A DNA stretch of 64,000 bases from an uncultured bacterium (lineage in GTDB: Bacteria; Patescibacteriota; Minisyncoccia; Phycocordibacterales; GWA1-40-21), in NCBI GenBank assembly GCA_903831305.1, contig CAIKXE010000004.1:147524-211523 (forward strand). Direction: 5' to 3'. How positions within the stretch are numbered: position 1 is the first letter of the stretch; each line of letters opens with the position of its first letter. This document shows, one piece after another, positions 9,121 through 60,926 of the stretch. The position numbers and the translations under genes were made by a program. The notes under the pieces are model-generated. The model ran no database searches, was not told where the DNA came from, and saw nothing but the letters and a program-made list of their open reading frames with translations.

Positions 9121-9615
9121 ATGGAAAATACTAAATATGTGCGACCGAGTTGGGATGAATATTTTATGAATATTGTGCGAGCCGTTGGCGGGAGGGCTAC
9201 TTGTGATCGGGGGCGAACCGGCTGTGTGATTGTAAAAGATAAACATATTATTTCCACTGGTTATGTGGGAGCACCGGCTGGTTGTAAAAGCTGTGATGAG
9301 GTTGATCACGAATTAAACACGGTCATTCAGGAAGATGGTACCCAAACAAAACATTGTGTGCGGACTACTCACAATGAACAAAACGCGCTTGTTCAAGCTG
9401 CTCGTTTTGGTGTCAGTACTGATGGTGGAACTTTGTATTGTATGATGACACCGTGTTATACCTGTGCCAAATTGCTGATTAATGCGGGCATTAAAAGAGT
9501 AGTTGCGGAAAAAGATTATCATGCGGGGACTAGGAGTAAGGCAATATTTGCTGAAGCGGGTGTTCAGTATGAATTATTAAATGCCGAGGTGGTGTCTTAT
9601 TCTAATATGAAATAA
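9121..9615 (+). CDS. dCMP deaminase (cytidine/deoxycytidylate deaminase family, ComEB-like)
   Basis: Zinc-binding motifs H-N-E-Q-N-A (HNEQNAL) and PCYTCAKLLINAGIKRVV. Confidence 0.8.
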   Translation: MENTKYVRPSWDEYFMNIVRAVGGRATCDRGRTGCVIVKDKHIISTGYVGAPAGCKSCDEVDHELNTVIQEDGTQTKHCVRTTHNEQNALVQAARFGVSTDGGTLYCMMTPCYTCAKLLINAGIKRVVAEKDYHAGTRSKAIFAEAGVQYELLNAEVVSYSNMK

Positions 9616-9616
9616 T

Positions 9617-10171
9617 ATGGCTGAATTAATTTTAGGTTTAACCGGTCCGATCTCTTGTGGTAAAGGTACAGTTAAAAAATATATAGTAGAAAAATACAAA
9701 GCGGAGGATTGTCGTTTTTCTACGATTCTAAGGGATGTGTTAAACCGAGTGGATTTACCAACCAGCCGTGATAATTTGATAAAAGTTTCAACCGTTTTAA
9801 GACAGACTTTTGGTGAAGATTTGCTAGCCAAGGCTATTGCTAAGGATGCTTCCGGTTTAAATTCTAAGGTCGTGGTTATAGATGGGATCAGGCGCATGAC
9901 GGATATTGGCCACCTGATTAATCTACCGCATTTTGTTTTAGTTAGCGTGGATGCTAGCCCTAAAGTCCGTCATGAGCGTTTAGTTTTAAGAAAAGAAAAT
10001 GAAGGTGATGCCCAAAAAACTTTTGAAGACTTTTTAGCGGATCATAGACGGGAGACGGAGATCACTATTCCAGAAGTGATGAGCCAAGCTAGAGAAAAGA
10101 TAAATAATGATGGGGATTTTACTGTTTTGTATAAACAAGTGGATACTATTATCAGCAAATATATAAAATAA
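9617..10171 (+). CDS. P-loop nucleoside/nucleotide kinase family protein (AAA_17/dNK/CoaE-like)
   Basis: N-terminal Walker A GLTGPISCGKGT. It lies between dCMP deaminase and tmk; specific substrate not assignable. Confidence 0.45.
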   Translation: MAELILGLTGPISCGKGTVKKYIVEKYKAEDCRFSTILRDVLNRVDLPTSRDNLIKVSTVLRQTFGEDLLAKAIAKDASGLNSKVVVIDGIRRMTDIGHLINLPHFVLVSVDASPKVRHERLVLRKENEGDAQKTFEDFLADHRRETEITIPEVMSQAREKINNDGDFTVLYKQVDTIISKYIK

Positions 10172-10172
10172 A

Positions 10173-10793
10173 ATGCCCAAAGGAAAATTTATTGTCATTG
10201 ATAGTGGCGAGGGGGCAGGCAAGACCCTACAGCTAGAAAAAGCCAAGGCTCTCTTTGGTGATTCTTTGGTTTTGACCCGGGAGCCTGGTGGGTCACCATA
10301 TGCTGAGGAAATACGCCAGATTATTTTGAAGTCCCCAAACTCGGGGCAGGCGGATGCCAAGACTTTATTTGCTTTATTTTGGGCGGCTCGGGCGGATCAT
10401 CTGAAAAATACCGTTAGACCAGCGCTCGAAGCGGGTAAAACAGTGATTACGGACCGTTTTGATTCTTCCACTTTTGCCTATCAGATAATTGCTCAGGGGG
10501 CCACAGAGCTCAAAGACTTTTTTTGGCAAATGCGGGACTTTTATTTGGGTGATTTGAAGCCAGATTTATATATTTATTTTGATATTGACCCGGTAATCGG
10601 CTTAGCTAGAAAAAATAAACAAGGTGGAGCAGAATTAAACCATTTTGAAGCTAGAGAAATTAATTTTCATAATTCTTTGCGAGCCGGTTTTAAAGAATTT
10701 ATCGGTCACGTTCCGCATACCATTATTGATGCCAGCCAGTCGGTTGAAAAAGTCTGGGCTGATTTTAGTGCTGTTTTAAAAAAGAATTTATAA
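10173..10793 (+). CDS. tmk: Thymidylate kinase
   Basis: P-loop IVIDSGEGAGKT and TDRFDSSTFAYQ (DR…AYQ) motif. Confidence 0.85.
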   Translation: MPKGKFIVIDSGEGAGKTLQLEKAKALFGDSLVLTREPGGSPYAEEIRQIILKSPNSGQADAKTLFALFWAARADHLKNTVRPALEAGKTVITDRFDSSTFAYQIIAQGATELKDFFWQMRDFYLGDLKPDLYIYFDIDPVIGLARKNKQGGAELNHFEAREINFHNSLRAGFKEFIGHVPHTIIDASQSVEKVWADFSAVLKKNL

Positions 10794-10814: not shown

Positions 10815-12104
10815 ATGAAAGTATTTGTTTATGATGAGTTTGGTCCTCAGGATACTGCTATGATGCAGGCCCTATATTCTAGAAGTGCTCAGAGTGTGGA
10901 GGAACACGTAAAAAAGGTTAGGGAAAGTAATTCGGGTAAATTCATGGAGCGTTTTTATGTGGGTTATGGTCATGCCAGTATTGCAGACTGTGGTAGCACC
11001 ACTATCTTTGTGGAGGGGGTGAGTATGCTGGTAGCCAAAGCCATACAAGATTGGCCACTATATTCTGGTCAGGAAACTAGTTCCCGCTATATTGATATGT
11101 CTCGGCAAGCTATCATTGACCCGGTGGGGACTAAAGACTCAAAACAAATATTAGATAGTTGGATGGAATTTTATACTAGTAGCCAAGCCGAGGTCCAAGC
11201 TCATATTGCTCAGAAATATCCTAGAAAAGAAGATGAAGATGAGGTGGTCTATTGTAAGGCCGTGACGGCTCGGGCTTTTGATACTTTGCGGGGGTTTTTA
11301 CCCGCGGGGGTCGCTACCCAGTTTAGCTGGCATACAAATTTACGCCAGGCCCATGACAAGTTGGTTTATCTGAGGCGCCATCCCTTAGCGGAGGTTCGAG
11401 AGGTGGCGGAAAAGATTTTAGCTAGTCTGAAAGAAAAATATGCTCAGAGCTTTGGCCATTTAGAAACTCCGGAGCAGGATAAATATTGGAATTTCTTAGG
11501 GAGCAAATATAATTATTATTTTAATAAAAGCGCTAAGGCATTTTTGGCTAAAACTAATATTAATAAAAAGGAAATTGCTCAGTATAATGATATTTTTTCT
11601 AAACGAGCGCTGAAAACTGGCTTGCCTCATTTCTTGACGGAGCTTGGTAATGTGACTTTTGAATTTCTCCTAGACTTTGGTTCTTTCCGTGATATTCAGC
11701 GCCATCGAAACGGCGTCTGTCGAATGCCACTTTTGACATCTAAATTTGGTTTTAATGACTGGTATTTAAACGAATTACCAGAAAGCGTCCGTAAAACGGC
11801 CGAGAAGTTGATTAAAGAACAGGTTAAGTTGATTAATAAATTAAAAACCACTCCAGAGAACAAACAGTATTATTTGGCGATGGGTTTCAATGTCACTTGT
11901 AAAGTTTCTTATGGCTTACCAGCGGCTACTTATGTCTCAGAATTACGCTCAGGCCGATTAGTACACCCAACATTAAGAAAGGTAGCTCATCAGATGAGTA
12001 GAGCTTTAATAAAAATGTTTCCAAATTTAAAGTTGCAGTCAGACTTTAGTTTGGACGATTGGAATATTAGACGGGGAATGCAAGATATTAAGGAGAAAAA
12101 ATAA
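10815..12104 (+). CDS. ThyX-like flavin-dependent thymidylate synthase, unusually long (429 aa) with the ThyX signature split between the two halves
   Basis: The sequence shows QETSSRY (aa ~88-93), resembling the ThyX substrate-binding S-x-R-Y element, and RHRNGVCRMPLLTS (aa ~296) containing the RHR triad. Operon context is dCMP deaminase, tmk, glyA and dut. Family assignment is inferred. Confidence 0.45.
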   Translation: MKVFVYDEFGPQDTAMMQALYSRSAQSVEEHVKKVRESNSGKFMERFYVGYGHASIADCGSTTIFVEGVSMLVAKAIQDWPLYSGQETSSRYIDMSRQAIIDPVGTKDSKQILDSWMEFYTSSQAEVQAHIAQKYPRKEDEDEVVYCKAVTARAFDTLRGFLPAGVATQFSWHTNLRQAHDKLVYLRRHPLAEVREVAEKILASLKEKYAQSFGHLETPEQDKYWNFLGSKYNYYFNKSAKAFLAKTNINKKEIAQYNDIFSKRALKTGLPHFLTELGNVTFEFLLDFGSFRDIQRHRNGVCRMPLLTSKFGFNDWYLNELPESVRKTAEKLIKEQVKLINKLKTTPENKQYYLAMGFNVTCKVSYGLPAATYVSELRSGRLVHPTLRKVAHQMSRALIKMFPNLKLQSDFSLDDWNIRRGMQDIKEKK

Positions 12105-12105
12105 T

Positions 12106-13314
12106 ATGAAAGACAAACAAATTGAAAAACTGATTAAGGCGGAGGAGGGGAGGCAGAAGAAAACCATTTCTTTAATCGCGTCGGAAAATTATGTCTCGGC
12201 CGATGTTTTAAAAGCCCTCGGCTCCAAGTTTACAAATAAATATTCGGAAGGCTATCCCGGGCACCGTTATTATAAGGGGCAGACTTTTACGGATCAGGTG
12301 GAGGAGCTCTGCCGTAGCCGCGCCTTGAAACTTTTTAAATTAAATTCTAAAGATTGGGCGGTGAATGTGCAAGCCCTCTCTGGCTCACCAGCAAACTTGG
12401 CGGTTTACTTGGCCCTAGTGCCTCCGGGCGGTAAGGTGATGGGGATGTCCTTGGACCATGGTGGGCACCTTACTCATGGTCACAAAGTCTCCGCTACGGG
12501 TAAAATCTGGACGCAGGTGCCGTACGGGGTAGATAAAAATACTGAAGTTATAAATTATGACGAGATAAAAAAGATTGCTGTGGCGGAAAAGCCAGATATG
12601 ATTATTGCTGGCTATACCGCTTATCCACGGACAGTGGATTTTAAAAAGTTCCGAGAGATTGCGGATGTGGTAGTCCATCCTGAGGCTGGGCGAAGGACTA
12701 TACTCATGGTGGACATGTCACATTTTGCTGGGCTAGTGGCCGGTGGGGCTTATCCGTCACCGTTTGACTATGCAGATGTGGTAACCACCACGACTCATAA
12801 AACGCTTCGCGGACCGCGTAGCGCCTTGATTTTTTCTCGTCGGGATAAAACTAAACTGAATGCCAAAGGTAATCCAGTGAGCTTTGGTGACTTGATTGAT
12901 AAAGCCGTTTTCCCCGGGTTACAAGGTGGTCCGCATATGAATCAGATTGCCGCTGTAGCTGTGACCTTAAAAGAAGCTTCTACTCCCGCTTTTAAAAAGT
13001 ATGCCAAACAGGTGGTGAAGAATGCTAAGGTGCTAGCAGAGGAATTAAAGAAGATGGGTTGGAAGATTATCTCTGGTGGTACGGATAGTCATTTGATTTT
13101 GGTGGACACTGGGAAAATCAGCGGAGCCGAGGCAAGTGATAGATTGGAGAAAGTGGGGATTATTGTAAATAAAAATACCATCCCAAACGAGCCTAGGAGC
13201 CCCATGGATCCCTCCGGTATCCGCCTTGGTACTGCCGGAGAAACCACCCGCGGGGCTAAGGAAAAGGATATGGTGAAGCTCGCTAAAAGGATTGATCAAG
13301 CTTTGAAAAAATAA
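12106..13314 (+). CDS. glyA: Serine hydroxymethyltransferase
   Basis: ENYVSADVLKALGSKFTNKYSEGYPGHRYY and the PLP-lysine region TTTTHKTLRGPR. Confidence 0.9.
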   Translation: MKDKQIEKLIKAEEGRQKKTISLIASENYVSADVLKALGSKFTNKYSEGYPGHRYYKGQTFTDQVEELCRSRALKLFKLNSKDWAVNVQALSGSPANLAVYLALVPPGGKVMGMSLDHGGHLTHGHKVSATGKIWTQVPYGVDKNTEVINYDEIKKIAVAEKPDMIIAGYTAYPRTVDFKKFREIADVVVHPEAGRRTILMVDMSHFAGLVAGGAYPSPFDYADVVTTTTHKTLRGPRSALIFSRRDKTKLNAKGNPVSFGDLIDKAVFPGLQGGPHMNQIAAVAVTLKEASTPAFKKYAKQVVKNAKVLAEELKKMGWKIISGGTDSHLILVDTGKISGAEASDRLEKVGIIVNKNTIPNEPRSPMDPSGIRLGTAGETTRGAKEKDMVKLAKRIDQALKK

Positions 13315-13736
13315 TGATTTTAAAAATTAAAAAGTTAAATAGCGAGGCGGTGATGCCCAAGTATGCCACGAGAGGTGATGCGGGGATGGATTTGTTTTGC
13401 TTGGACCGGGTGGTGGTGGCGCCAATGGCACGGGTGCAGGTCAGTACCGGACTAGCCATGGAGATACCGGAGGGTTTTGTGGGACTGATCTGGGATAAAA
13501 GTAGTTTGGCCCATAAGTTTGGGCTAAAGATTCTTGGCGGAGTGATTGATTCTGGCTACCGTGGGGAAATAAAGATCGGTATTATAAATTTAAGTACAGA
13601 GGATTATATTTTTGAAAAGGGACATAAGGTGGCGCAGATGATAATTCAGAAAAAGGAAACGCCGGAGATTGTGGAGGTGACGGATCTCTCAGTGACTGAT
13701 CGTGGTGAGTCTGGTTTTGGTAGTACAGGGAAGTAG
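13314..13736 (+). CDS. dut: dUTP diphosphatase
   Basis: ATRGDAGMDL and GVIDSGYRGEI motifs. Overlaps the glyA stop (ATGA). Confidence 0.9.
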   Translation: MILKIKKLNSEAVMPKYATRGDAGMDLFCLDRVVVAPMARVQVSTGLAMEIPEGFVGLIWDKSSLAHKFGLKILGGVIDSGYRGEIKIGIINLSTEDYIFEKGHKVAQMIIQKKETPEIVEVTDLSVTDRGESGFGSTGK

Positions 13737-13860: not shown

Positions 13861-14934
13861 TCAGTTATGAGCGAGTTCTATCATTAGTTCGGAGACGGGG
13901 AGGATCTTGTCCACGCGGTAGGCGTTTGTACCCACGGTGTACATGGCCGGTTCACCGGGAGCAAGGCCTATGGCCGCGCGCAAGGCGTCACAGATGCAGA
14001 AATACTTGCTGTGCTCGGGGTGATTAGGGTGCGCTTTACAGATGGTATAGTGACCCTCCTTGTCCTTGCCCAGGACATAACCCATCCGGCATTTGGGACG
14101 GCGGGTACCAGCTAGTAGCTCCAGGTAAGCAGGTGAACATTTGAGTATCCGGAAAGGGAAACCACAAGGGGAGCTACCCACCGTTATGATATCTTCCTGT
14201 CGGCACTCCACCACCGCGCGTTTGAACTCCGCGGTTGCTGAGCTCTCTTCAGTCGCCAGGAATCTGGTTCCCAGCTGAACCCCGCTCGCTCCAAGTCCAC
14301 GGAACTTCCAGATGTCGGTGTTCGTGTAGATTCCTCCGGCTACTATCACTGGGATATTGCCATTTTTAGTGGCTACTTCCAGTACTTCTGGCAGAAGTTC
14401 TTCAAGCTCGAGCTCAGACTGGCCGATGTCTTCCAGACGAGCACCCAAGTGTCCACCAGCCGCGTTTGGTCCTTCCAGGATTATGACATCCGGTTTCTGG
14501 TGACAGTACCGGAGCATGATCTTGAGACCTCTTGCACTCGAGGTGATCAGTCCAAAAGCGGTGTCCTTAAAAATCGTCCCGCGTTTGGGCACACCAGCTC
14601 CAAAGAAGATCACGGACACTTTGGCATCCAGGGCCGCTGTGACCGTTTCATCATAGCTCTCCGCGAGGATACCCATGACGTTTAGTCCTACACCGTAGCC
14701 GTCAGTCATCGCGGTCGCAATCTCTTCCTGCACGGCTTCATACGTGGTGTATGACCGTCCTTTGGTGATGGTGTAGAAGTCCTTGAGTCCAGCACTAGAT
14801 AGAACCCCTAAGCCACCATTTCTCCAAACCGCGCGCGTCAACCGCGGTCCAGATACACCGGCGCCCATACCTCCTTGGATGATGCAATACGGCCGGACAA
14901 TGTTCCCAAATCTCAATTCAGGAATGGTACCCAT
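13861..14934 (-). CDS. Nitronate monooxygenase / 2-nitropropane dioxygenase (NMO/FabK-like FMN oxidoreductase)
   Basis: N-terminal IIQGGMGAGVSGPRLTRAV and TIM-barrel FMN-binding pattern. The gene is markedly GC-rich relative to the flanks. Confidence 0.8.
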   Translation of the reverse strand: MGTIPELRFGNIVRPYCIIQGGMGAGVSGPRLTRAVWRNGGLGVLSSAGLKDFYTITKGRSYTTYEAVQEEIATAMTDGYGVGLNVMGILAESYDETVTAALDAKVSVIFFGAGVPKRGTIFKDTAFGLITSSARGLKIMLRYCHQKPDVIILEGPNAAGGHLGARLEDIGQSELELEELLPEVLEVATKNGNIPVIVAGGIYTNTDIWKFRGLGASGVQLGTRFLATEESSATAEFKRAVVECRQEDIITVGSSPCGFPFRILKCSPAYLELLAGTRRPKCRMGYVLGKDKEGHYTICKAHPNHPEHSKYFCICDALRAAIGLAPGEPAMYTVGTNAYRVDKILPVSELMIELAHN

Positions 14935-15036: not shown

Positions 15037-16497
15037 ATGGTAAAAAAGATAATTAAAAAAGTTGTAAAAAAGGCAAAAGTGATAAAGTCACCAGCTACCG
15101 CCTATGATGTGGTTATTATTGGTGGCGGGCCAGCCGGACTCATGGCCGCGTGCCAAGCTGGCGGGGCAGGGAAAAAAGTTCTGGTCTTGGAGAAGAATGA
15201 CGAGCTCGGCAAAAAGCTACTAATCTCCGGTGGTGGGCGCTGTAACTTGACCAACGCTAATCCAAATCATCGAGAGTTTGTCAGTAAATATGGTAAGAAA
15301 GGAGATTTTTTATTCAGCCCATTCTCTATTTTTGGTGTACCAGAAACTATAAAGTTTTTTAATGATTTGGGTTTGGAGACAAAGATAGAACCTGGTTTTA
15401 GAGTGTTTCCTGTGAGTGATAATTCCGCCGATGTTTTAAATATTTTGGTCAATCAGGCAAAAAAGTTAGGTGTAGAGTTTAAATTGTCTGCGGAGGTGGC
15501 TTCTCTTTCCCCCTCATTAGATAAGGTGAGTTTTGGGATGGGATCCAAAACGCAAGACTTCGAGTATTCCGTATCCGGGAAGCGAGAAGTGTACTGTTCC
15601 TGTAAGGAAGGGGCTAGGGGGCAGTTGAAAAATCAGAAAAGGATTAAGTCCGTAGTTTTACTTTCTGGTGAAGAAATCTCTGCCCATAAATTTATTTTAG
15701 CCACTGGGGGCATGTCTCACCCGGAGACCGGCTCCACCGGTGACGGTTTTAAATGGCTAAAAGAGATCGGTCATAAAGTAACTACGCCTAATCCGTCTTT
15801 GGTCCCGGTGAAAGTTTCTAATCCTTGGATTGCCGAGCTCTCTGGTATTAGCTTGGATGCTGTAGGTATTTCTGTCTGGGTTAACCAAGGTGGTTTTAAA
15901 AAAGTTTTGACTAAAAAAGGACGGATTCTTTTCACCCATGTGGGTCTGACTGGGCCGACGATTTTAAATATGAGTAAAGCGATCGGGGAGTATTTGGAAT
16001 ACCCTAATCCCGAAGACGGTCGGGCAGGCGGTGAAGTCCTCATCTCTTTGGATCTTTTCTCCGGGGTGGGTTTGGATCAGATGCATGAGATGATGCTAAA
16101 GACTTTTACGGAGCATATAAATAAGAAAATAAAAAATCTGGTTTTCCCGCAGGTACCAGGGAAAATATTTGAGTTGATTTTAAAACAGCTGGAGATTGAT
16201 CCCGAGTGGGAGATAAATGAAATCCGCCGAGAAGAGCGCTTGGCACTGATTGAGAAATTTAAAAAGTTTGAACTGACGGCCTCCGGACTGCTAGGGTTTG
16301 ATAAAGCTATCATCACGAGCGGGGGACTAGACTTAGGCGAAGTGGATTTTAAGACTATGGGTTCTAAACTTTATGATAATTTGTATTTTGCCGGGGACAT
16401 CCTGGACTTTGACCGTCCTTCTGGTGGCTTCTCTCTCCAGCTCTGCTGGACCACTGGGTATATCGCGGGAAAAAGCTCAGTAAACGGCCTAAAATAA
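15037..16497 (+). CDS. HI0933/BaiN-family FAD-dependent oxidoreductase (aminoacetone oxidase family)
   Basis: YDVVIIGGGPAGLMAA dinucleotide-binding motif after a Lys-rich N-terminal extension. C-terminal GFSLQLCWTTGYIAG is typical of the HI0933 family. Confidence 0.8.
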   Translation: MVKKIIKKVVKKAKVIKSPATAYDVVIIGGGPAGLMAACQAGGAGKKVLVLEKNDELGKKLLISGGGRCNLTNANPNHREFVSKYGKKGDFLFSPFSIFGVPETIKFFNDLGLETKIEPGFRVFPVSDNSADVLNILVNQAKKLGVEFKLSAEVASLSPSLDKVSFGMGSKTQDFEYSVSGKREVYCSCKEGARGQLKNQKRIKSVVLLSGEEISAHKFILATGGMSHPETGSTGDGFKWLKEIGHKVTTPNPSLVPVKVSNPWIAELSGISLDAVGISVWVNQGGFKKVLTKKGRILFTHVGLTGPTILNMSKAIGEYLEYPNPEDGRAGGEVLISLDLFSGVGLDQMHEMMLKTFTEHINKKIKNLVFPQVPGKIFELILKQLEIDPEWEINEIRREERLALIEKFKKFELTASGLLGFDKAIITSGGLDLGEVDFKTMGSKLYDNLYFAGDILDFDRPSGGFSLQLCWTTGYIAGKSSVNGLK

Positions 16498-19606: not shown

Positions 19607-22600
19607 ATGGATAATAAAGACATCACTAGTAAAAGTCTCCGGGCACAAAAAGAAGAGCAAATCCTCAAGTTCTGGCAGGATAATCAGATTTTTGAAAAGT
19701 CTTTGGCCAAGGAAGCCCCCAAAGGTGAATTTGTTTTTTATGATGGGCCACCTTTTGCCACCGGTTTACCGCACTATGGGCACCTGCTAGCCGGGACGAT
19801 CAAAGATTACGTGGGTCGCTACCAGACCATGCGCGGGTATCATGTGCCTAGGCGTTGGGGCTGGGATTGTCATGGTTTGCCCGTGGAAAATATTGTGGAG
19901 AAGGATTTGGGCTTAAAGAGTCGAAAGGATATTGAAGAATACGGTATAGAAAAATTTAATGATAAAGCTAAAGCCTGCGTGCTGACTTATGTGGATGATT
20001 GGAAAAAGATCGTTCCGCGCATGGGGCGCTTTGTGGATATGGAGCATGATTATAAAACCATGGACTCTTCTTTTACAGAGAGCGTCTGGTGGATTTTCCA
20101 TAAATTAAACGAAAAAGGTTTGGTTTATGAAGGTTTCAAGTCTATGCATCTTTGCCCGCGCTGTGAGACCACTTTGTCCAACTTTGAAGTGAATCAGGGT
20201 TATAAGGATATCACGGATATTTCTGTGACGGTGAAATTTGCGGTGGTAGGGGAAGCTGGTACTTTCTTCCTAGCTTGGACCACCACCCCTTGGACCCTAC
20301 CAGGAAACGTCGCTCTTGCTGTTGGTCCGGATGTTGATTATGTCAAAATCAAAGTGATGCCCACCGGGGAGAATTATATTTTGGCCAAGGCTCGGTTAGG
20401 GGTGATTAAAGATGATTACGCTATCGTGGAAGAATTTAAGGGCGAGAAGGTGATCGGTCAGTCTTATAAACCCGTTTTTGATTATTACAATAATAAAGAG
20501 ACCAAGAATATTGCCAATGGTTTCAAAGTTTACGGTGCCAGCTTTGTGACAACTACGGATGGTACCGGTATTGTCCATATTGCGCCGGCTTTTGGTGAGG
20601 ATGATATGAACCTAGGTAAGGAAAATAATCTACCCTTTATCCAGCACGTAGGGACGAACGGGCGGTTCAAACCAGAAGTGACGGATTTTGCTGGTCTTTT
20701 GGTAAAACCAAAAGATGATAAGGAGTCTGGACAGGATCATCAGAGCTCGGATATTTTAGTAATTAAATATTTGGCGGGAAAAGGGACTTTGTTTGCTAAA
20801 GAAAAGTTGATTCACTCTTATCCACATTGCTGGCGTTGTCAAACCCCGCTTTTAAATTATGCTTCTTCCTCCTGGTTTGTGGAAGTAACTAAATTTCGAG
20901 ATGATTTGGTAAAAGCAAATAAAGGGATTAACTGGGTGCCAGTCGATATCAAGGAAGGGCGGTTTGGCAAGTGGCTAGAAGGAGCCCGGGATTGGGCTAT
21001 CTCCCGTTCGCGTTACTGGGGTGCGCCTTTGCCGGTCTGGCGTTGTGATGGCTGTGCCAAGAAAGAATTTATCGGCTCGGTAGAAGATTTAAAAAAGAAA
21101 ACTGGCGGACGAAATAATTTTTATGTCGTACGGCACGGCGAGGCTGATAATAATGTGCTCGGTATTATTAGCTCGGATCCTAAACGGCCGCATCATCTGA
21201 CAGAGAAGGGAATTTTGCAAGTTAAAGAGGAGGCGGAAAAGCTAAGGTCAAAAAAGATTGATTTGATTTATGTTTCACCCTTTGTCCGGACCCAAGAGAC
21301 CGCTAAAATAATTGCTGAAATTTTAAATATTCACCCGGATAAAGTTATTACTGATGATCGTATCCACGAAGTTTATGGTGGCGAGCTTGATGGAAAAACT
21401 GATGCTGAATATCAACGTTTCTTTGGCTCGCGTTTGGAGAAATTTGATAAGACTCCTGTCGGTGGGGAAAATTATACGCAGATAAAAAACCGGATGACAG
21501 AATTTGTCTATGATGCTAATTCTAAAAATAAGGGCAAGAATATTTTAATCATTAGTCATAATACGCCAATCTGGCTCATGTTTGCTGGAATCTTTGGCCT
21601 TGACCCAGCTCAGACCATAGACCTTCGTCGTGAGGCTAGAGATTTTATAAAGAACTCAGAGGTCAAAGAATTACCTTTTGCGCCGATCCCGCATAATCAT
21701 AATTATGAATTGGACTTGCATCGGCCATATATTGATGAGGTGACTTTTGCTTGTCCTTGCGGTGGTACTATGAGGCGGGTACCAGAGGTATTTGACTGTT
21801 GGTTTGAATCCGGCTCCATGCCGTTTGCTCAGGCTCATTATCCGTTTGAAAATCTAGACAAATTTAATCCGCACCCGGGAATGTTTAGAAAGCCGGTAGG
21901 CTTTCCAGCAGAATATATTGGTGAGGGTTTGGATCAGACTCGGGGGTGGTTTTACTCTATGCTGATCTTGTCTGTCGGTTTATTTGGCGAGTCTTCTTAT
22001 AAAAATGTTATTGTAAATGGGATTATCTTGGCTGAGGATGGGCAAAAGATGTCCAAAAGTTTGAAGAATTATCCGGATCCGATGATTTTGGTGGACAAAT
22101 ACGGCGCTGATGCCTTGAGGTATTATCTGTTATCTTCACCGGTAGTCCGGGCGGAGGATCTATGCTTCTCGGAAGCGGGGGTGGATGAAGTGATGAAGAA
22201 GATTTTGACTAGGTTAGACAATGTCTTTTCTTTCTATGAGATGTATAGTAAAGAGTCCTCGGTGCCGGTTAGAAACTTTGTGCCAGAGTCAGAAAATATT
22301 TTGGATCAGTGGATCCTTATTAGATTAAAGGAACTTATTATTGCTGTGACTGGTGCCTCTGATAAATATGAGATGGACCGGGCGGTTCGGCCAGTGATGG
22401 ATTTTGTGGATGATTTGTCCACTTGGTATTTGCGTCGTTCCCGTGACCGCTTTAAATCTGCTAATCAAAAGGATAAAGTCCAGGCTATCCAGTCTACTCG
22501 TTTTGTCTTGGAGGAATTGACAAAAGTGATTGCCCCGGTGATGCCTTTTTATGCTGATGAACTTTACCAAAAAGTAAAATCTTTTGAGGGTAAAGAGAGT

Positions 22601-23140
22601 GTGCATTTATCAGCTTGGCCAGAGGTGGTTAAACTGACTAAAGTGGATGAAGCGGTAAAGATTAGCATGGAGGAGGTTAGAAAAATTGTTTCCTTGGGCC
22701 TTGAAGCCCGAGCTAAATCAAATATTAAAGTCCGTCAGCCCCTTGCCAGCCTTAAGGTTAAAGAGGGTAAGGTGATTTTGTCAGATTTGTATTTAAGTCT
22801 GATCCAGGATGAAATAAATGTAAAGAAAGTGATTTTTGATAAGACTATTATTGAGGCCGTGGAGCTTGATCTGGTCATTACGCCCGAGCTTAAGGAGGAG
22901 GGGGCGGTACGCGAGCTTACTCGAGCTATTCAGGAACTGCGCAAGCAAGAAAAGCTGTCTCCGACGGATTTTGCGAGTTTGAAAATTAAGACGGATGAGC
23001 GCGGTAAAAAGCTCGTCCAAAAGTTTGAAGCGGAAATAAAGAAAACCACCTTGATCAAGATTATTTCTTTTGAGGAGTTTGACGTGGAGTCAGTGACGGT
23101 GGTAGATGATTTGTCTTTTGGTCTAAAAATAAACCGATGA
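19607..23140 (+). CDS. ileS: Isoleucine--tRNA ligase (type 2, eukaryote-like) carrying an in-frame histidine-phosphatase (PGM-family) domain insertion
   Basis: HIGH motif PHYGHLLAG, KMSKS motif KMSKSLKN, CP1 editing domain, Zn-ribbon CPRCETT / WRCDGC / CPCGG. Residues ~500-690 (nt ~21100-21690) contain VVRHGEADNN…ISHNTPIW, a histidine phosphatase superfamily fold, not IleS. Confidence 0.9.
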   Translation: MDNKDITSKSLRAQKEEQILKFWQDNQIFEKSLAKEAPKGEFVFYDGPPFATGLPHYGHLLAGTIKDYVGRYQTMRGYHVPRRWGWDCHGLPVENIVEKDLGLKSRKDIEEYGIEKFNDKAKACVLTYVDDWKKIVPRMGRFVDMEHDYKTMDSSFTESVWWIFHKLNEKGLVYEGFKSMHLCPRCETTLSNFEVNQGYKDITDISVTVKFAVVGEAGTFFLAWTTTPWTLPGNVALAVGPDVDYVKIKVMPTGENYILAKARLGVIKDDYAIVEEFKGEKVIGQSYKPVFDYYNNKETKNIANGFKVYGASFVTTTDGTGIVHIAPAFGEDDMNLGKENNLPFIQHVGTNGRFKPEVTDFAGLLVKPKDDKESGQDHQSSDILVIKYLAGKGTLFAKEKLIHSYPHCWRCQTPLLNYASSSWFVEVTKFRDDLVKANKGINWVPVDIKEGRFGKWLEGARDWAISRSRYWGAPLPVWRCDGCAKKEFIGSVEDLKKKTGGRNNFYVVRHGEADNNVLGIISSDPKRPHHLTEKGILQVKEEAEKLRSKKIDLIYVSPFVRTQETAKIIAEILNIHPDKVITDDRIHEVYGGELDGKTDAEYQRFFGSRLEKFDKTPVGGENYTQIKNRMTEFVYDANSKNKGKNILIISHNTPIWLMFAGIFGLDPAQTIDLRREARDFIKNSEVKELPFAPIPHNHNYELDLHRPYIDEVTFACPCGGTMRRVPEVFDCWFESGSMPFAQAHYPFENLDKFNPHPGMFRKPVGFPAEYIGEGLDQTRGWFYSMLILSVGLFGESSYKNVIVNGIILAEDGQKMSKSLKNYPDPMILVDKYGADALRYYLLSSPVVRAEDLCFSEAGVDEVMKKILTRLDNVFSFYEMYSKESSVPVRNFVPESENILDQWILIRLKELIIAVTGASDKYEMDRAVRPVMDFVDDLSTWYLRRSRDRFKSANQKDKVQAIQSTRFVLEELTKVIAPVMPFYADELYQKVKSFEGKESVHLSAWPEVVKLTKVDEAVKISMEEVRKIVSLGLEARAKSNIKVRQPLASLKVKEGKVILSDLYLSLIQDEINVKKVIFDKTIIEAVELDLVITPELKEEGAVRELTRAIQELRKQEKLSPTDFASLKIKTDERGKKLVQKFEAEIKKTTLIKIISFEEFDVESVTVVDDLSFGLKINR

Positions 23141-47469: not shown

Positions 47470-48258
47470 TTAGAAAAAAGATTTAATTAGCCTCAGTTTT
47501 GCCCAGATGATGGCGGAAAACCAGCCCGGATACCGGCCAAAGTTTCTAATGATTATTTTATAGTGATTCCAAGCCATAATTACTTTTCTTTTCTGTGAAA
47601 TACTGCCCGAGTGCCTAGTATAGGCAGTGGTAATTTTAACCAGATTCTTCATTTTACCTAGTCGGCCGAGTCTCAGAAAGAGGTCCAAGTCTTCCACACA
47701 GGATAGTCTCTCGTCATAACCACCTGCTTTTGTTATAAGCTCCTGGCGGATTAAGACACTGGAGTGGGGGATTTGATTATCTTTTAGAATATTTTCTCGG
47801 ATTATCTGATCCTCAATAGCAAAATTAGTCTCTTTAATGAGGTCACCTTTTTCATTTATTATTCTGATATTTGAGCCAATCAAGGCATAGTCAGAATTTT
47901 GCTCTAAAAAGTCATATTGTTTCTGTAATTTATCATTATCCAGCCAATAATCATCACTATCTAGGACAGCGATATACTGGCCAGGAGCTAGTTTCAAGGC
48001 CTTATTTCTATTAGCAGAAATACCTAAAGCTGGTGAGTTTTTATAATACTTTATCCGGCTATCATTGACTGTGTAAGAGGCCACAATGGCCTCTGTAGCA
48101 TCCTTAGAATCATCATCGGAGACTATGAGCTCCCAGTCTGTAAAGGACTGTTTTTGGGCACTTTCAAGGGCTTGGGCTATGAAGTCAGCCCTATTTCTAG
48201 TGACGGTTATAATACTAATTTTTGGTTTTATATTTGTATCCATGTGATTTCTGATCAT
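47470..48258 (-). CDS. Family 2 glycosyltransferase
   Basis: ISIITVTRNRADFIAQALESAQKQSF…ELIVSDDDSKD (GT-A fold, DxD). Confidence 0.8.
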   Translation of the reverse strand: MIRNHMDTNIKPKISIITVTRNRADFIAQALESAQKQSFTDWELIVSDDDSKDATEAIVASYTVNDSRIKYYKNSPALGISANRNKALKLAPGQYIAVLDSDDYWLDNDKLQKQYDFLEQNSDYALIGSNIRIINEKGDLIKETNFAIEDQIIRENILKDNQIPHSSVLIRQELITKAGGYDERLSCVEDLDLFLRLGRLGKMKNLVKITTAYTRHSGSISQKRKVIMAWNHYKIIIRNFGRYPGWFSAIIWAKLRLIKSFF

Positions 48259-48269
48259 ACTGACAAGTA

Positions 48270-49109
48270 TTAAATTTTAATCCACTCTGGTGGCAGTAAA
48301 TTTGCGTATTCTTTTTGATGGAAGTTATTCCATTTCTTGGGTGCGATTACTATTTTATTTGGATTTTGATTTAGCCAAGCTATCCAAAAAGTAAAACTAC
48401 TGTTTGCAATAATATTGTGTTTGCATTTAGTTGCAATCATGAAATTATCGTAGACAGGGATATTAGCGTCAGAAAATATAATTGGTAAATCAGTTTTTAA
48501 ATTAATTTTGCACCATTCAATATCATCAGAAAAAATGAACAAAGTAGGGCTGGGCACCTTTTCTTTTATTAATCTAAGGGCTTTTTCATAATATTCAATA
48601 TTAAATGTTATCCACTCCTTCGCAAATTTTGGATTACTAACATAATCTCCTCTACGAACTCCTACATAAACTGAATTAGTATTTTCTATTTCTGATATAA
48701 TACCATATTTTTTAATAGTATTATCCTTCAGTGATACCTCCCTCAGAAGTTCACTCCGTATGGGCTCAAGGTATTTATAGCTTTGCCAATATCCTTCCAT
48801 ATAACCACTTTTGCTTTTTAGTAATCTAGGGATATATCCGATATTAAATGATCTTAAGACTTTTGTTTTAGCTAGCTCCAAGATTCTTGAAACTACCCCA
48901 AGTGGGTACCCTACTTTTTTAAGTTCCTCGTCCGAGGCTATCTCTACTTCTGTGTTTAAATAGCCAAGAAAATATTCTCTTATGCTATCATTCTTGTTTA
49001 CGAGGAATTTATATTTTACTTCAACATTATTTTTAACAGACAAAAGCCTCCCAAAAGAATATTGAAATAACTGGTTTCCAGGCCCACCACGTAATCGTAT
49101 TATTATCAT
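48270..49109 (-). CDS. Alpha-1,2-fucosyltransferase (GT11 family)
   Basis: N-terminal motif IIRLRGGPGNQLFQYSFG (GT11 signature GGLGNQMFQYA). Start set at the internal MIIIRL so as not to overlap the upstream gene. Confidence 0.7.
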   Translation of the reverse strand: MIIIRLRGGPGNQLFQYSFGRLLSVKNNVEVKYKFLVNKNDSIREYFLGYLNTEVEIASDEELKKVGYPLGVVSRILELAKTKVLRSFNIGYIPRLLKSKSGYMEGYWQSYKYLEPIRSELLREVSLKDNTIKKYGIISEIENTNSVYVGVRRGDYVSNPKFAKEWITFNIEYYEKALRLIKEKVPSPTLFIFSDDIEWCKINLKTDLPIIFSDANIPVYDNFMIATKCKHNIIANSSFTFWIAWLNQNPNKIVIAPKKWNNFHQKEYANLLPPEWIKI

Positions 49110-49114
49110 AGTGA

Positions 49115-50155
49115 TTATTTTTTTAAGATAGTCCTTTTTATTAAAATAACTTTTTTGGCTATGTTTTTTAGGTAAAAATATATTTTGTAGTGTAACCTTG
49201 CCGTCCTCCACTTTTTGTTATTTTTTATTTTTTCATCCAGACCGGTTTTATATGATATTCCCTGATATTTTTCAAAGAAGTTTATAAATTCCAGAGTCTG
49301 CTTTTCTAAACTTAAATTTTCGATTATGTATTTTCTTGGCTCAAAACTTGACCAGTTCTCTTCCATCTTATGTATTGAATTCTCAATCTCCTTCATGTTT
49401 TTTGTCTTTATCCCACACCTGTCATCAAAATAATATGCAGAAGTTGTATCCGAATATAGTAGCTCGGCTGGTGTGTATATCTTTTCCTCTTTATTTGTTG
49501 GTACCCAGTGTCCAATATTTAAAACGTCCCAGACTAAAATGGGGACGTTCATGGAAAGAGCCTCCTCCAATGCAATACCTTGACTCTCCTGTCTTCCAAG
49601 CCAAATAAGGTATTTTGTATTTCTTAGCTTTTCTATGTAGTCACTTTGTTTGTATGAACCATAAATAATTATTTCATGTTTGATTTCTAATTCATTTAGT
49701 ATTTTTTTAATATGCTCTAACTCACTGTCGTATCTTTGTTTAAAATATATTAAAACAATACCATTGGTTGGTTTTTGTCTCTCGGAAAATTCATATGTAT
49801 CAATTCCTACTGGCCAATAGACAAAAGGACATTTGTTAAATCCAAAACTTCTCCAGACACCAGCTGACCATTTTGAGGGTTGGATGTATATAAGGTTAGA
49901 AAAATTAATGTCCACGGGGATATTTCTCGGAAGTATGTAAAGATTTGGGCCAACAACTGCCTTAATCTTTTTCTTTGATACCTCCCTCAGAGCTTCAACA
50001 TCATCGTGTATCCACAATTGCGATGTTGTATCTAGGGCTCTGTTAATACAATAGGGGTAATTTAAGAGATCAAGACCTTTTATTAAATTTGTAGCTACTT
50101 TTTGTGGTCCCGAAGTATAACCAGACGCGACCGATTTTGAAATTATATTTATCAT
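49115..50155 (-). CDS. Putative GT-B (GT4-like) glycosyltransferase
   Basis: C-terminal E-x7-E-like region ESQGIALEEALSMNVPILVWD. N-terminus not diagnostic. Confidence 0.45.
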   Translation of the reverse strand: MINIISKSVASGYTSGPQKVATNLIKGLDLLNYPYCINRALDTTSQLWIHDDVEALREVSKKKIKAVVGPNLYILPRNIPVDINFSNLIYIQPSKWSAGVWRSFGFNKCPFVYWPVGIDTYEFSERQKPTNGIVLIYFKQRYDSELEHIKKILNELEIKHEIIIYGSYKQSDYIEKLRNTKYLIWLGRQESQGIALEEALSMNVPILVWDVLNIGHWVPTNKEEKIYTPAELLYSDTTSAYYFDDRCGIKTKNMKEIENSIHKMEENWSSFEPRKYIIENLSLEKQTLEFINFFEKYQGISYKTGLDEKIKNNKKWRTARLHYKIYFYLKNIAKKVILIKRTILKK

Positions 50156-50252
50156 GCTTTTGTTAAAATCTAAAAATATATTATTTTTAAGTTTAGCACG
50201 TTTTTAGCCTTAGGACTAGAAATTAGTCACTGTTTTGTGTTAGTATGTATGA

Positions 50253-51245: not shown

Positions 51246-51312
51246 TTTTTAACGGTTATGAGTATCATTTTTTAATAAAACCTAAATATACTTTATAAAT
51301 AATATCAATAAC

Positions 51313-52011: not shown

Positions 52012-52012
52012 C

Positions 52013-52960: not shown

Positions 52961-52983
52961 GCAAATTTCTGAAAAGATTTTTT

Positions 52984-55355: not shown

Positions 55356-55368
55356 ATTTGTAAATATT

Positions 55369-57927: not shown

Positions 57928-58060
57928 ATTAATTACACATGCTATAATAGCATATTAACTGTACATTTATTAGGTTAATGGGCTATAATATATGTGTTTT
58001 AATATTTCTGCAATTTTGATCTTACTGAGTGCTAGTAAATTTGTGGTTTAATTTTTTAAT

Positions 58061-58945: not shown

Positions 58946-58947
58946 AG

Positions 58948-60896: not shown

Positions 60897-60926
60897 TTTT
60901 AGAGCAAATTTGCTATTCTTGACGCT

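What the first reader, a model, noticed from the sequence alone, without database searches (positions are those of the whole stretch)
10815..12104. Unusually long ThyX-like protein with the catalytic signature split between N- and C-terminal halves
Canonical ThyX (~220-250 aa) has the contiguous signature RHR-x7-S-x-R-Y. Here the 429-aa protein has an S-x-R-Y-like element (QETSSRY, aa ~88) in the first half and the RHR triad (RHRNGVC…, aa ~296) in the second half. Active sites of the ThyX tetramer are built at subunit interfaces. A tandem-duplicated pseudo-dimeric polypeptide in which each half retains a complementary part of the site would be a novel architecture. Alternatively this is a distant Thy1-fold enzyme with different chemistry, for example a nucleotide-modifying methylase.
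Basis: inference. Interest (0 to 1): 0.6.

Follow-up and report, generated by a model that had tools for sequence, protein, structure and literature searches.

The report
Two-domain ThyX with split active site
This gene encodes a double-length version of the flavin-dependent thymidylate synthase ThyX in which two copies of the enzyme fold are fused and each copy keeps only half of the catalytic residues, so two chains should build two working sites instead of the usual four; the form is common in ultra-small (CPR) bacteria and some giant phages but I found no description of it in the papers I could search.

Summary
The ORF at 10815-12104 encodes 429 aa, with QETSSRY at aa 86-92 and RHR at aa 296-298. 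AlphaFold models are confident (pLDDT 96.3 full length, 91.7 for the C-half alone), and each half finds only ThyX structures in the PDB, so this is a tandem Thy1-fold duplication. Sequence methods barely detect the C-half. Published M. tuberculosis ThyX subunit roles, mapped onto 102 diverse relatives, give a clean partition. The C-half alone keeps RHR and the uracil-binding Arg (R296, R298, R378 at 100%). The N-half alone keeps the FAD-phosphate pair (S55 100%, R177 87%) and the dUMP loop (S89 and R91 100%, Y92 93%). By D2 symmetry, only a homodimer acting as a pseudo-tetramer with two complete and two dead sites fits. Context argues for true dTMP synthesis: the operon is dCMP deaminase, dNMP kinase, Tmk, ThyX, SHMT, dUTPase, it is conserved in related loci, and some relatives are fused to dCMP deaminase. 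The family is large (at least 583 species genomes, mostly Patescibacteria, plus jumbo Vibrio and Microcystis phages) and is already annotated as ThyX. No searchable paper describes the architecture. Oligomeric state and activity are untested.

The parts
10815..12104 (+). Whole gene: 429-aa two-domain ThyX (stop codon included)
   Evidence: ORF. The same gene call appears on 12 contigs. AF2 full-length model has pLDDT 96.3 and pTM 0.92.
10815..11438 (+). N-terminal Thy1-fold domain (aa 1-208). Supplies the 'b' and 'c' roles of the active site.
   Evidence: Pfam Thy1 aa 16-208, E=2e-22. The family profile matches M. tuberculosis ThyX at E=3.5e-8. Foldseek PDB hits for the full-length model are all ThyX.
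10971..10979 (+). H53-A54-S55, equivalent to M. tuberculosis H69/S71 (FAD phosphate/ribityl contact, role b)
   Evidence: HMMER alignment. H53 is 97% and S55 100% conserved. Role taken from PMC6514825.
11049..11057 (+). D79-W80-P81: the degenerate position of the canonical RHR triad in the N-half
   Evidence: Alignment. D 84%, W 34%, P 67% across the family; never Arg.
11067..11090 (+). G85-Q-E87-T-S89-S-R91-Y92: retained dUMP loop (equivalent to M. tuberculosis Q103, S105, R107, Y108; role c)
   Evidence: E87 97%, S89 100%, R91 100%, Y92 93%. Roles.
11289..11291 (+). R159, equivalent to M. tuberculosis R172 (T. maritima R147 by my memory of that sequence); presumed dUMP phosphate binder
   Evidence: 94% conserved. 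Alignment.
11343..11345 (+). R177, equivalent to M. tuberculosis R190 (FAD phosphate, role b)
   Evidence: 87% conserved. Alignment. Role.
11439..11651 (+). Linker helix plus the variable N-terminal part of the second domain (aa 209-279)
   Evidence: Mean pairwise identity 0.23 against 0.41-0.45 in the two cores. Secondary structure.
11463..12101 (+). C-terminal Thy1-fold domain (aa 217-429). Supplies the 'a' role.
   Evidence: AF2 of the C-half alone has pLDDT 91.7. Foldseek PDB gives 149 hits at E<=1e-3; all 50 listed are ThyX or PolB, with E down to 1.2e-6 and TM 0.55-0.65 over 187-215 columns. Pfam Thy1 is only sub-threshold, E=0.003.
11688..11708 (+). R292-D293-I-Q-R296-H297-R298: retained RHR triad with the family-specific FRD prefix
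   Evidence: R292, D293, R296 and R298 are 100% conserved; H297 is 89%. Role a.
11946..11966 (+). R378-S-G-R-L-V-H384. R378 is equivalent to M. tuberculosis R199 / PBCV-1 R182 (uracil contact, role a); H384 is equivalent to M. tuberculosis H203.
   Evidence: R378 and H384 are 100% conserved. Roles. The N-half has no conserved Arg at positions 184-188.
12018..12101 (+). Conserved C-terminal tail (aa 402-429; DDWxxRRGxQDIxEK, R420 invariant)
   Evidence: R420 is invariant. pLDDT is 84-87 in the full-length model but 52-64 in the isolated C-half, so the tail probably packs on the N-half.
9121..9615 (+). dCMP deaminase (makes dUMP), same operon
   Evidence: Pfam dCMP_cyt_deam_1, E=1e-22. Co-located with the long ThyX in 51 of 80 related loci. 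Fused to it in P0359, P0364 and P0368.
9617..10171 (+). P-loop dNMP-kinase-like protein, same operon
   Evidence: phrog_139 deoxynucleoside monophosphate kinase, E=3.8e-12. Co-located in 45 of 80 loci.
10173..10793 (+). Thymidylate kinase (dTMP to dTDP), same operon
   Evidence: Pfam Thymidylate_kin, E=4e-35.
12106..13314 (+). Serine hydroxymethyltransferase (makes CH2-THF, the ThyX carbon donor). Starts 1 nt after the ThyX stop codon.
   Evidence: Pfam SHMT, E=7e-158. Co-located in 23 of 80 loci.
13314..13736 (+). dUTPase (makes dUMP), same operon
   Evidence: Pfam dUTPase, E=4e-30. Co-located in 44 of 80 loci.

Best explanation
The gene encodes a functional flavin-dependent thymidylate synthase (dUMP + CH2-THF + NADPH to dTMP) built from two fused, diverged Thy1-fold domains. 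In canonical ThyX, four identical subunits form four sites, and each site uses three subunits. Subunit 'a' gives the RHR triad and the uracil-binding Arg. Subunit 'b' gives a Ser and an Arg that hold the FAD phosphates. Subunit 'c' gives the S-x-R-Y loop that holds dUMP and covers the reacting atoms. Here the C-terminal domain has kept only the 'a' residues, and the N-terminal domain has kept only the 'b' and 'c' residues. A complete site therefore needs one C-domain and two N-domains, so a single chain cannot make one. Two chains forming a pseudo-tetramer (N, C, N', C') make exactly two complete sites and two dead ones. What is shown: the ORF, the two Thy1 folds (as predictions), the residue partition and its conservation, and the pathway context. 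What is inferred: the homodimeric pseudo-tetramer, the two-site stoichiometry, FAD binding and catalytic activity.
For: (1) Fold. The full-length AF2 model has pLDDT 96.3 and pTM 0.92, and its significant PDB matches are all ThyX, each covering about half of the query. The C-half alone has pLDDT 91.7 and gives 149 PDB hits at E<=1e-3; all 50 listed are ThyX or PolB, with TM 0.55-0.65. The order of secondary-structure elements repeats: E61-70/H71-78 ... E166-175/H176-186/H192-208 against E280-287/H288-295 ... E358-366/H368-377/H385-401.
(2) Roles. PMC6514825 section 3.1 assigns RHR 95-97 and R199 to subunit A; S71 and R190 to subunit B; and R87, Q103, S105, R107 and Y108 to subunit C. PBCV-1 ThyX agrees: Q75 and R182 come from one monomer, S88/Q89 from another (PMC3498832). 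The M. tuberculosis numbering was checked against the sequence the tool printed.
(3) Partition across 102 relatives at 32-87% identity. Role a is kept only in the C-half: R296 100%, H297 89%, R298 100%, R378 100%. The N-half equivalents are D79/W80/P81, with no conserved Arg at 184-188. Role b is kept only in the N-half: H53 97%, S55 100%, R177 87%. The C-half equivalents are P271, a variable residue at 272, and P369. Role c is kept only in the N-half: E87 97%, S89 100%, R91 100%, Y92 93%, R159 94%. The C-half equivalents are M304, L306, T308, S309 and Q351.
(4) Symmetry logic (inference). The four canonical sites are (A,B,C), (B,A,D), (C,D,A) and (D,C,B). Only the assignment A,D = C-type and B,C = N-type gives complete sites, and it gives two.
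(5) Constraint. The C core is conserved about as well as the N core: mean pairwise identity 0.41 against 0.43.
(6) Function. The operon is dCMP deaminase, dNMP kinase, Tmk, ThyX, SHMT, dUTPase and is conserved in 80 related loci. Natural fusions of dCMP deaminase to the two-domain ThyX exist. No second ThyX copy was seen in the window, and no ThyA-like sequence in the window or loci (weak test).
(7) Breadth. There are more than 4,400 homologs, 728 clusters at 50% identity and at least 583 species genomes. The same partition holds in jumbo Vibrio phages. A viral predicted structure superposes over the whole two-domain body at TM 0.93 and rmsd 2.5 A.
Against: No experiment and no multimer model supports this. 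I had no access to model coordinates, so I could not confirm that the N-C arrangement matches a canonical subunit pair, nor that the retained residues converge in space.
The protein scores 37.9 bits against the NCBIfam thyX equivalog model, well below the 87.9 cutoff.
By sequence, the C-half is only sub-threshold for Thy1, and its own profile finds no ThyX in the PDB. The N-versus-C profile comparison is weak (E=0.012).
The C-half equivalents of the role b and role c positions were placed by counting from RHR and R378 without indels, not from a structural alignment.
One role c residue, M. tuberculosis R87, is lost in both halves (M71). K75 (97% conserved) may substitute for it, but that rests on my memory of the T. 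maritima sequence.
The strongly conserved non-canonical residues (D79, P271, P305, Q351, R420) are unexplained.
Confidence: 0.7

Rival explanations
1. This is a Thy1-fold enzyme with different chemistry. It could be a UMP/dUMP C5-methylase like PolB, a hydroxymethylase, or an enzyme that modifies another nucleotide, rather than a housekeeping thymidylate synthase.
For: It scores below the NCBIfam thyX equivalog cutoff, 37.9 against 87.9 bits. PolB appears among the structural matches of the C-half. Homologs occur in jumbo phages, which often modify nucleotides, and are annotated there as 'hypothetical' or 'thymidilate synthase-like'. Several conserved residues are non-canonical.
Against: Every residue that contacts dUMP or FAD in M. 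tuberculosis ThyX, except R87, is retained somewhere in the chain at 87-100% conservation. The gene sits between Tmk and SHMT, with dCMP deaminase and dUTPase in one tightly packed operon. That neighbourhood is conserved in 80 loci. Fusions to dCMP deaminase exist. No other thymidylate synthase was seen nearby.
Confidence: 0.1
2. The fold duplication is real but the quaternary model is wrong. The enzyme might assemble differently, for example as a tetramer of two-domain chains or as a monomer. Alternatively, all four pseudo-sites could work, using non-canonical residues such as K75, R292, R303 or R420 in place of the lost ones.
For: The oligomeric state was not tested and only a monomer was modelled. 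Conserved basic residues of unknown role exist: K75 97%, R292 100%, R420 100%. The conserved tail gains confidence only in the full-length model.
Against: The putative dead sites carry D79 (84%) and prolines where phosphate-binding Arg, His and Ser should be, which is hard to reconcile with FAD binding. The residues are retained only where a two-site pseudo-tetramer would need them, which is unlikely to be coincidence. A monomer cannot provide the two different N-type contributions (roles b and c) that the canonical geometry requires.
Confidence: 0.15
3. The C-terminal half is a non-catalytic scaffold or regulatory appendage with a decayed Thy1 fold, and catalysis rests on the N-half alone, as in a canonical homotetramer.
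For: Sequence methods detect only the N-half as Thy1, and the public precomputed Pfam annotation lists a single Thy1.
Against: The N-half lacks the RHR triad and the uracil-binding Arg throughout the family, so it cannot bind FAD or orient dUMP in the canonical way. Those very residues are 100% conserved in the C-half. The C core is as constrained as the N core.
Confidence: 0.05

Closest known systems
Canonical homotetrameric ThyX / FDTS (Thermotoga maritima TM0449, M. tuberculosis Rv2754c, PBCV-1 A674R; Pfam PF02511)
   Same: It has the same fold, here present twice. It has the same set of FAD- and dUMP-contacting residues when the two halves are taken together. It has the same pathway context with SHMT, dUTPase and Tmk. 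It presumably uses the same chemistry.
   Different: It is about 430 aa with two Thy1 domains in one chain, instead of about 190-250 aa with one. The contiguous RHR-x7-S-x-R-Y signature is absent from both halves and is divided between them. It is predicted to be a homodimer with two active sites per four domains instead of four. The second domain is too diverged for Pfam, NCBIfam or PDB sequence profiles to detect. It has a family-specific FRD-xx-RHR motif and a conserved RRGxQDI tail.
Mixed ThyX tetramers made from two different inactive mutants (Leduc et al. 2004, PNAS 101:7252; cited; paper not held, content recalled from memory)
   Same: As I recall it, subunits defective in different active-site residues restored activity when combined, because each site draws on several subunits. 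The natural protein appears to fix that arrangement permanently in one chain.
   Different: Those were laboratory mixtures of point mutants of a homotetramer. This is an evolved, covalently fused and widespread natural form. I could not read the paper, so the comparison is a lead and not a test.
Herpesvirus monomeric dUTPase (from my own knowledge: a duplicated dUTPase fold whose conserved motifs are redistributed between the two halves to give one active site that mimics the trimeric enzyme)
   Same: The evolutionary logic is the same. An enzyme whose active sites lie between identical subunits is duplicated and fused, and each copy then loses the residues the other retains, which reduces the number of sites.
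   Different: The fold and the reaction are unrelated, and that protein is a monomer rather than a predicted dimer. This is an analogy only and was not tested here.
PolB, the ThyX-like UMP/dUMP methylase of polyoxin biosynthesis (PDB 4p5a, 4p5b)
   Same: It has a Thy1 fold and appears among the structural matches of the C-half.
   Different: PolB is a single-domain homolog with the usual contiguous motif arrangement, and it lies in a natural-product cluster rather than a dTMP operon.
Chlamydial ThyX (about 529 aa by my memory; reported active by Griffin et al. 2005, J Biol Chem; used as an enzyme in PMC3498832)
   Same: It is possibly another long ThyX. If it has the same two-domain partition, the architecture would already be biochemically validated.
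   Different: This could not be tested. The paper is not held, and no chlamydial name appeared among the listed homologs. Whether it belongs to this family is unknown.

Membership tests
ThyX / FDTS (flavin-dependent thymidylate synthase, Pfam Thy1 PF02511) | Thy1 (ThyX) three-dimensional fold | tested here: met
   Full-length model: all significant PDB hits are ThyX. C-half model alone: 149 hits at E<=1e-3, and all 50 listed are ThyX or PolB. Both results rest on AF2 predictions with pLDDT 96.3 and 91.7.
ThyX / FDTS | Pfam PF02511 match above the gathering score | tested here: met
   The whole protein scores 80.2 bits against 24.8, via aa 16-208. The C-half alone scores 17.7 bits, below the cutoff.
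ThyX / FDTS | Contiguous ThyX signature RHR-x7-S-x-R-Y within one domain | tested here: not met
   The N-half has D79-W80-P81 followed by S89-x-R91-Y92. The C-half has R296-H297-R298 with no SxRY after it. None of 327 family members has the contiguous motif.
ThyX / FDTS | NCBIfam TIGR02170 thyX equivalog score at or above its cutoff | tested here: not met
   37.9 bits against a cutoff of 87.9.
ThyX / FDTS | Full set of FAD- and dUMP-contacting residues (M. tuberculosis S71, R95, H96, R97, S105, R107, Y108, R190, R199) | tested here: met
   All nine are present once in the chain, split between the halves: S55, R296, H297, R298, S89, R91, Y92, R177 and R378, at 87-100% conservation. M. tuberculosis R87 is not retained (M71).
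ThyX / FDTS | [quoted passage not shown] | not testable with these tools
   There is no multimer prediction and no access to coordinates. The residue partition predicts a homodimer that mimics the tetramer, with two sites (inference).
ThyX / FDTS | Bound FAD, and NADPH- and CH2-THF-dependent conversion of dUMP to dTMP | not testable with these tools
   This needs biochemistry or genetic complementation.
ThyX / FDTS | Genomic association with the dTMP pathway and no competing thymidylate synthase | tested here: met
   The gene is in an operon with dCMP deaminase, dNMP kinase, Tmk, SHMT and dUTPase, conserved in 80 loci. Fusions to dCMP deaminase exist.

The most novel reading that the evidence does not exclude
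The duplicated and partitioned ThyX is a structural subclass that, as far as I could find, has not been described. It would be an obligate homodimeric pseudo-tetramer that is the main thymidylate synthase of Patescibacteria and of some jumbo phages. Its two degenerate pockets are not merely dead. They keep strongly conserved non-canonical residues (D79, P81, P271, P305, Q351) and sit near an invariant C-terminal RRGxQDI tail. They may have been repurposed, for example as a docking site for the reductant or as a regulatory nucleotide site that couples the two live sites.
Probability: 0.2. Interest if true: 0.75.

Novelty: new variant of a known kind. Interest (0 to 1): 0.58.

Why it matters
ThyX is an antibacterial drug target and a mechanistic oddity: flavin N5 carries the methylene group, and each active site is shared by three subunits. 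All reviews I could read describe it only as a homotetramer with four identical sites.

A natural, widespread form in which duplication, fusion and reciprocal loss have fixed a two-site pseudo-tetramer would matter in four ways:
- It would give a clean natural system for asking whether ThyX sites communicate and which subunit contributes what, without mixing mutants.
- It would be a textbook case of degenerative complementation inside a homo-oligomer.
- It would explain why ThyX-specific models under-score these proteins (NCBIfam below its cutoff; Pfam sees one domain).
- It would mark the thymidylate synthase on which a large part of the CPR radiation and several jumbo phages depend.

Tried and rejected
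- **BLASTP of N-half against C-half:** no similarity.
- **hhalign of N-half against C-half family profiles:** weak (E=0.012, probability 3.7%), aligning only the C-terminal parts of each half. Sequence alone cannot prove the duplication.
- **C-half against the PDB by sequence:** phmmer and a 29-sequence profile found no ThyX.
- **Papers not held:** Griffin 2005 (Chlamydia ThyX) and Leduc 2004 (active site at three monomers).
- **Chlamydial ThyX:** I spent a homolog search on the 531-aa member P0270 hoping to reach it. No chlamydial names appeared, and cluster look-ups of ten long or distant members gave only CPR names. Whether the roughly 529-aa chlamydial ThyX shares this architecture stays open.
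- **Stand-alone C-half genes:** short hits of 190-300 aa looked like candidates, but most begin inside the end of the N-half and are assembly or gene-call fragments.
- **Literature searches:** ThyX with CPR or Patescibacteria terms, duplication, tandem, pseudo-tetramer and 'ThyX domain' returned nothing on the architecture. The library lacks most subscription papers, so this is absence in that library only.
Full report
**Observation.** The sequence reads Q86-E-T-S89-S-R91-Y92 in the first half and R296-H297-R298-N-G-V-C in the second. Pfam Thy1 matches aa 16-208 at E=2.2e-22. The HMMER alignment to M. tuberculosis ThyX places D79-W80-P81 where the canonical R95-H96-R97 lies, and aligns S89/R91/Y92 with S105/R107/Y108. 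From the protein's own composition one would expect 0.03 RHR and 0.08 SxRY per protein, and both elements are invariant across the family. The same 429-aa gene is called on at least 12 independent metagenome contigs.

**Is the second half a ThyX domain?** Sequence methods nearly fail on this.
- BLASTP of N against C finds nothing.
- A profile-profile comparison is weak, at E=0.012.
- The C-half alone reaches only E=0.003 against Pfam Thy1, below the cutoff.
- The C-half's own profile finds no ThyX in the PDB. The full-family profile does touch residues 128-217 of PBCV-1 ThyX with its C-terminal part.

Structure prediction settles it. With a 102-sequence alignment the full-length AlphaFold2 model has mean pLDDT 96.3 and pTM 0.92. 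Its significant Foldseek matches in the PDB are all ThyX chains, each covering about 220 of the 429 residues. The C-half predicted alone (pLDDT 91.7) gives 149 PDB hits at E<=0.001. All 50 listed are ThyX (PBCV-1, T. maritima, C. glutamicum) or the ThyX-like PolB, with E down to 1.2e-6 and TM 0.55-0.65 over 187-215 columns. The order of strands and helices in aa 61-208 recurs in aa 280-401. The protein is therefore a tandem pair of Thy1-fold domains.

**Do the halves keep complementary parts of the site?** A review of FDTS structures assigns the residues of one M. tuberculosis active site to three subunits (PMC6514825, section 3.1):
- Subunit A gives R95-H96-R97 (FAD phosphates and isoalloxazine, plus dUMP) and R199 (dUMP).
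- Subunit B gives S71 and R190 (FAD phosphates and ribityl).
- Subunit C gives R87, Q103, S105 and R107 (dUMP) and the Y108 lid.

The PBCV-1 inhibitor structure agrees: Q75 and the strictly conserved R182 come from one monomer, and S88/Q89 from another (PMC3498832). I checked that the M. tuberculosis sequence printed by the tool carries these residues at these numbers. I then tabulated the equivalent positions in 102 family members at 32-87% identity to the query.

| Role | N-half | C-half |
|---|---|---|
| a (RHR, R199) | D79 84%, W80, P81; no conserved Arg at 184-188 | R296 100%, H297 89%, R298 100%, R378 100% |
| b (H69, S71, R190) | H53 97%, S55 100%, R177 87% | P271, variable 272, P369 |
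| c (Q103, S105, R107, Y108, R172) | E87 97%, S89 100%, R91 100%, Y92 93%, R159 94% | M304, L306, T308, S309, Q351 |

Only M. tuberculosis R87 is lost in both halves (M71). Among 327 full-length relatives, 310 show ExSxRY first and FRDxxRHR second, and none has the contiguous canonical motif. No canonical residue is retained where it would serve only the other kind of site. This test could have failed, and it did not.

**What the partition implies (inference).** In a D2 tetramer the four sites use subunits (a,b,c) = (A,B,C), (B,A,D), (C,D,A) and (D,C,B). Role a must come from a C-type domain, and roles b and c from two different N-type domains. That leaves one solution: A and D are C-type, B and C are N-type. 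Sites 1 and 4 are then complete and sites 2 and 3 lack everything. One chain (one N plus one C) cannot make a site. Two chains related by the A-D two-fold axis make two sites. The predicted enzyme is a homodimer that mimics the tetramer and carries one FAD and one dUMP site per chain. I could not verify the geometry because model coordinates are not exposed and no multimer prediction is available. Two indirect signs of an intimate N-C interface are the pTM of 0.92 and the conserved C-terminal tail. The tail (R420 invariant) has pLDDT 84-87 in the full-length model but only 52-64 in the isolated C-half.

**Is it really a thymidylate synthase?** The gene lies in a tightly packed same-strand operon:
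- dCMP deaminase, 9121-9615
- P-loop kinase matching the phage dNMP-kinase family, 9617-10171
- thymidylate kinase, 10173-10793
- the long ThyX, 10815-12104
- serine hydroxymethyltransferase, 12106-13314
- dUTPase, 13314-13736

FolD lies 4 kb upstream. These enzymes make dUMP, make CH2-THF, and consume dTMP. In 80 related genome loci the long ThyX is on the same strand as dCMP deaminase in 51, the kinase in 45, dUTPase in 44, SHMT in 23 and Tmk in 12. Some relatives (P0359, P0364, P0368; 613-629 aa) are natural fusions of an intact dCMP deaminase to the two-domain ThyX. No second ThyX copy was found in the window, and no ThyA-like sequence in the window or the flanks. The C core is as constrained as the N core: mean pairwise identity 0.41 against 0.43, with 20 of 122 against 21 of 148 columns at least 90% conserved. 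This rules out a decaying appendage. The sub-threshold score against the NCBIfam thyX equivalog model (37.9 against 87.9 bits) is a caution.

**How common is it, and where?** The family is large.
- The full protein has more than 4,400 homologs at E<=1e-5. The best 120 are nearly all 428-449 aa, and where named they are 'FAD-dependent thymidylate synthase' from Parcubacteria, Paceibacterota, Minisyncoccia or Taylorbacteria MAGs.
- The C-half alone hits 728 clusters at 50% identity. Most of the 150 listed are 420-550-aa proteins with the match in their C-terminal half. The short hits are fragments.
- At least 583 species-representative genomes encode a relative, and the best 80 are essentially all Patescibacteria MAGs.

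The architecture also occurs in jumbo Vibrio phages (vB_VmeM-Yong, BONAISHI), at 31% identity over 97% of the query, annotated 'hypothetical' or 'thymidilate synthase-like'. Those proteins keep the same partition. In the viral predicted-structure library a 461-aa protein superposes on the whole model at TM 0.93 and rmsd 2.5 A over 452 columns. The 491-aa 'thymidylate synthase' of Microcystis phage LMM01 matches at TM 0.75 over 473 columns with 16% identity. The inter-domain arrangement is therefore conserved across very distant members.

**Comparison with what is known.** The protein works like ThyX and belongs to the ThyX superfamily by fold and residues. It fails two sequence-based family definitions: the contiguous signature motif and the NCBIfam equivalog cutoff. 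It is also predicted to differ in oligomer and site number. Every review I could read describes ThyX only as a homotetramer with four identical sites. Eight full-text searches found no description of a two-domain or partitioned ThyX. Precomputed Pfam annotation lists PF02511 alone for these proteins.

Two leads rest on my memory and could not be tested. The first is that mixing differently inactivated ThyX mutants restores activity (Leduc 2004, not held), which would be the laboratory counterpart of this natural arrangement. The second is that chlamydial ThyX is about 529 aa and active (Griffin 2005, not held). If it has the same partition, the form has already been assayed without the architecture being noticed. 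A good analogy from general knowledge is the herpesvirus monomeric dUTPase, a duplicated fold with its motifs redistributed between the halves.

**Verdict.** The gene is an ordinary, essential-pathway enzyme in function. Its architecture appears to be an undescribed variant of a known kind. My confidence by step is:
- about 0.95 for the two Thy1 folds
- about 0.85 for thymidylate synthase function
- about 0.65 for the two-site homodimer

Interest is moderate to good, at 0.58. A ThyX specialist would be surprised by the clean reciprocal loss and the halved site count, and the claim can be tested directly with one multimer prediction and simple biochemistry. The surprise is limited because the gene is already annotated as ThyX and the chemistry is probably unchanged.

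Noticed in passing
window 19607-23140 (+): A 1177-aa class-I aminoacyl-tRNA synthetase (tRNA-synt_1 plus Anticodon_1, IleRS-like) carries a histidine-phosphatase / phosphoglycerate-mutase-like domain (His_Phos_1, E=2e-32) inserted at aa 506-671, in the middle of the catalytic domain. This is an unusual insertion.
   Followed up: no
window about 48000-60900: GC content drops to 0.30-0.34 from 0.40-0.47 elsewhere. The block encodes glycosyltransferases of families 8 and 11, sugar and rhamnosyl O-methyltransferases, an epimerase/dehydratase and a polysaccharide flippase. It is an ordinary low-GC surface-glycan cluster, possibly acquired.
   Followed up: partly
proteins P0359, P0364, P0368 (relatives, not in the window): These are natural fusions of an intact dCMP deaminase (HAE and PCxxC zinc motifs) to the N-terminus of the two-domain ThyX, 613-629 aa in total.
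   Followed up: partly
L081 4929-6314 (Vibrio phage vB_VmeM-Yong MS32) and L082 3884-5326 (Vibrio phage BONAISHI ORF269): Jumbo phages encode the same two-domain ThyX with the same residue partition. They are annotated 'hypothetical protein' or 'thymidilate synthase-like protein'. Microcystis phage LMM01 has a 491-aa structural relative.
   Followed up: partly
window 9617-10171 (+): A P-loop kinase matches the phage deoxynucleoside monophosphate kinase family (phrog_139, E=3.8e-12) and, below threshold, NF006226. It travels with the long ThyX in 45 of 80 loci. Its substrate is unknown. The anti-phage dCTP deaminase model NF041025 also touches it and the adjacent deaminase weakly.
   Followed up: partly
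window 12018-12101 (aa 402-429 of the ThyX): The conserved C-terminal tail DDWxxRRGxQDIxEK, with invariant R420, is confidently placed only in the full-length model (pLDDT 84-87 against 52-64 in the isolated C-half). It may reach into an active site or a degenerate pocket.
   Followed up: no
window 13861-14934 (-) and 15037-16497 (+): An NMO/FabK-like FMN protein and an HI0933-like (aminoacetone-oxidase family) FAD protein lie immediately after the dTMP operon. HI0933 was co-located in only 2 of the 81 sequences searched and NMO in only 1, the window itself, so a link to ThyX flavin reduction is unlikely.
   Followed up: partly
window 1-64000: ARAGORN found no tRNA or tmRNA gene in the whole 64 kb. 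GC skew is positive over almost the entire window, consistent with most genes lying on the + (leading) strand.
   Followed up: no
GTDB loci L015, L016, L027, L028, L073 and others: Several MAG records carrying this CPR-type gene are titled 'Gammaproteobacteria', 'Bdellovibrionales', 'Bacillota' or 'Saccharibacteria'. Single hits are named 'Methanosarcina sp.' and 'Acidimicrobiaceae'. These are probably mislabelled or misbinned records rather than real occurrences outside Patescibacteria.
   Followed up: no
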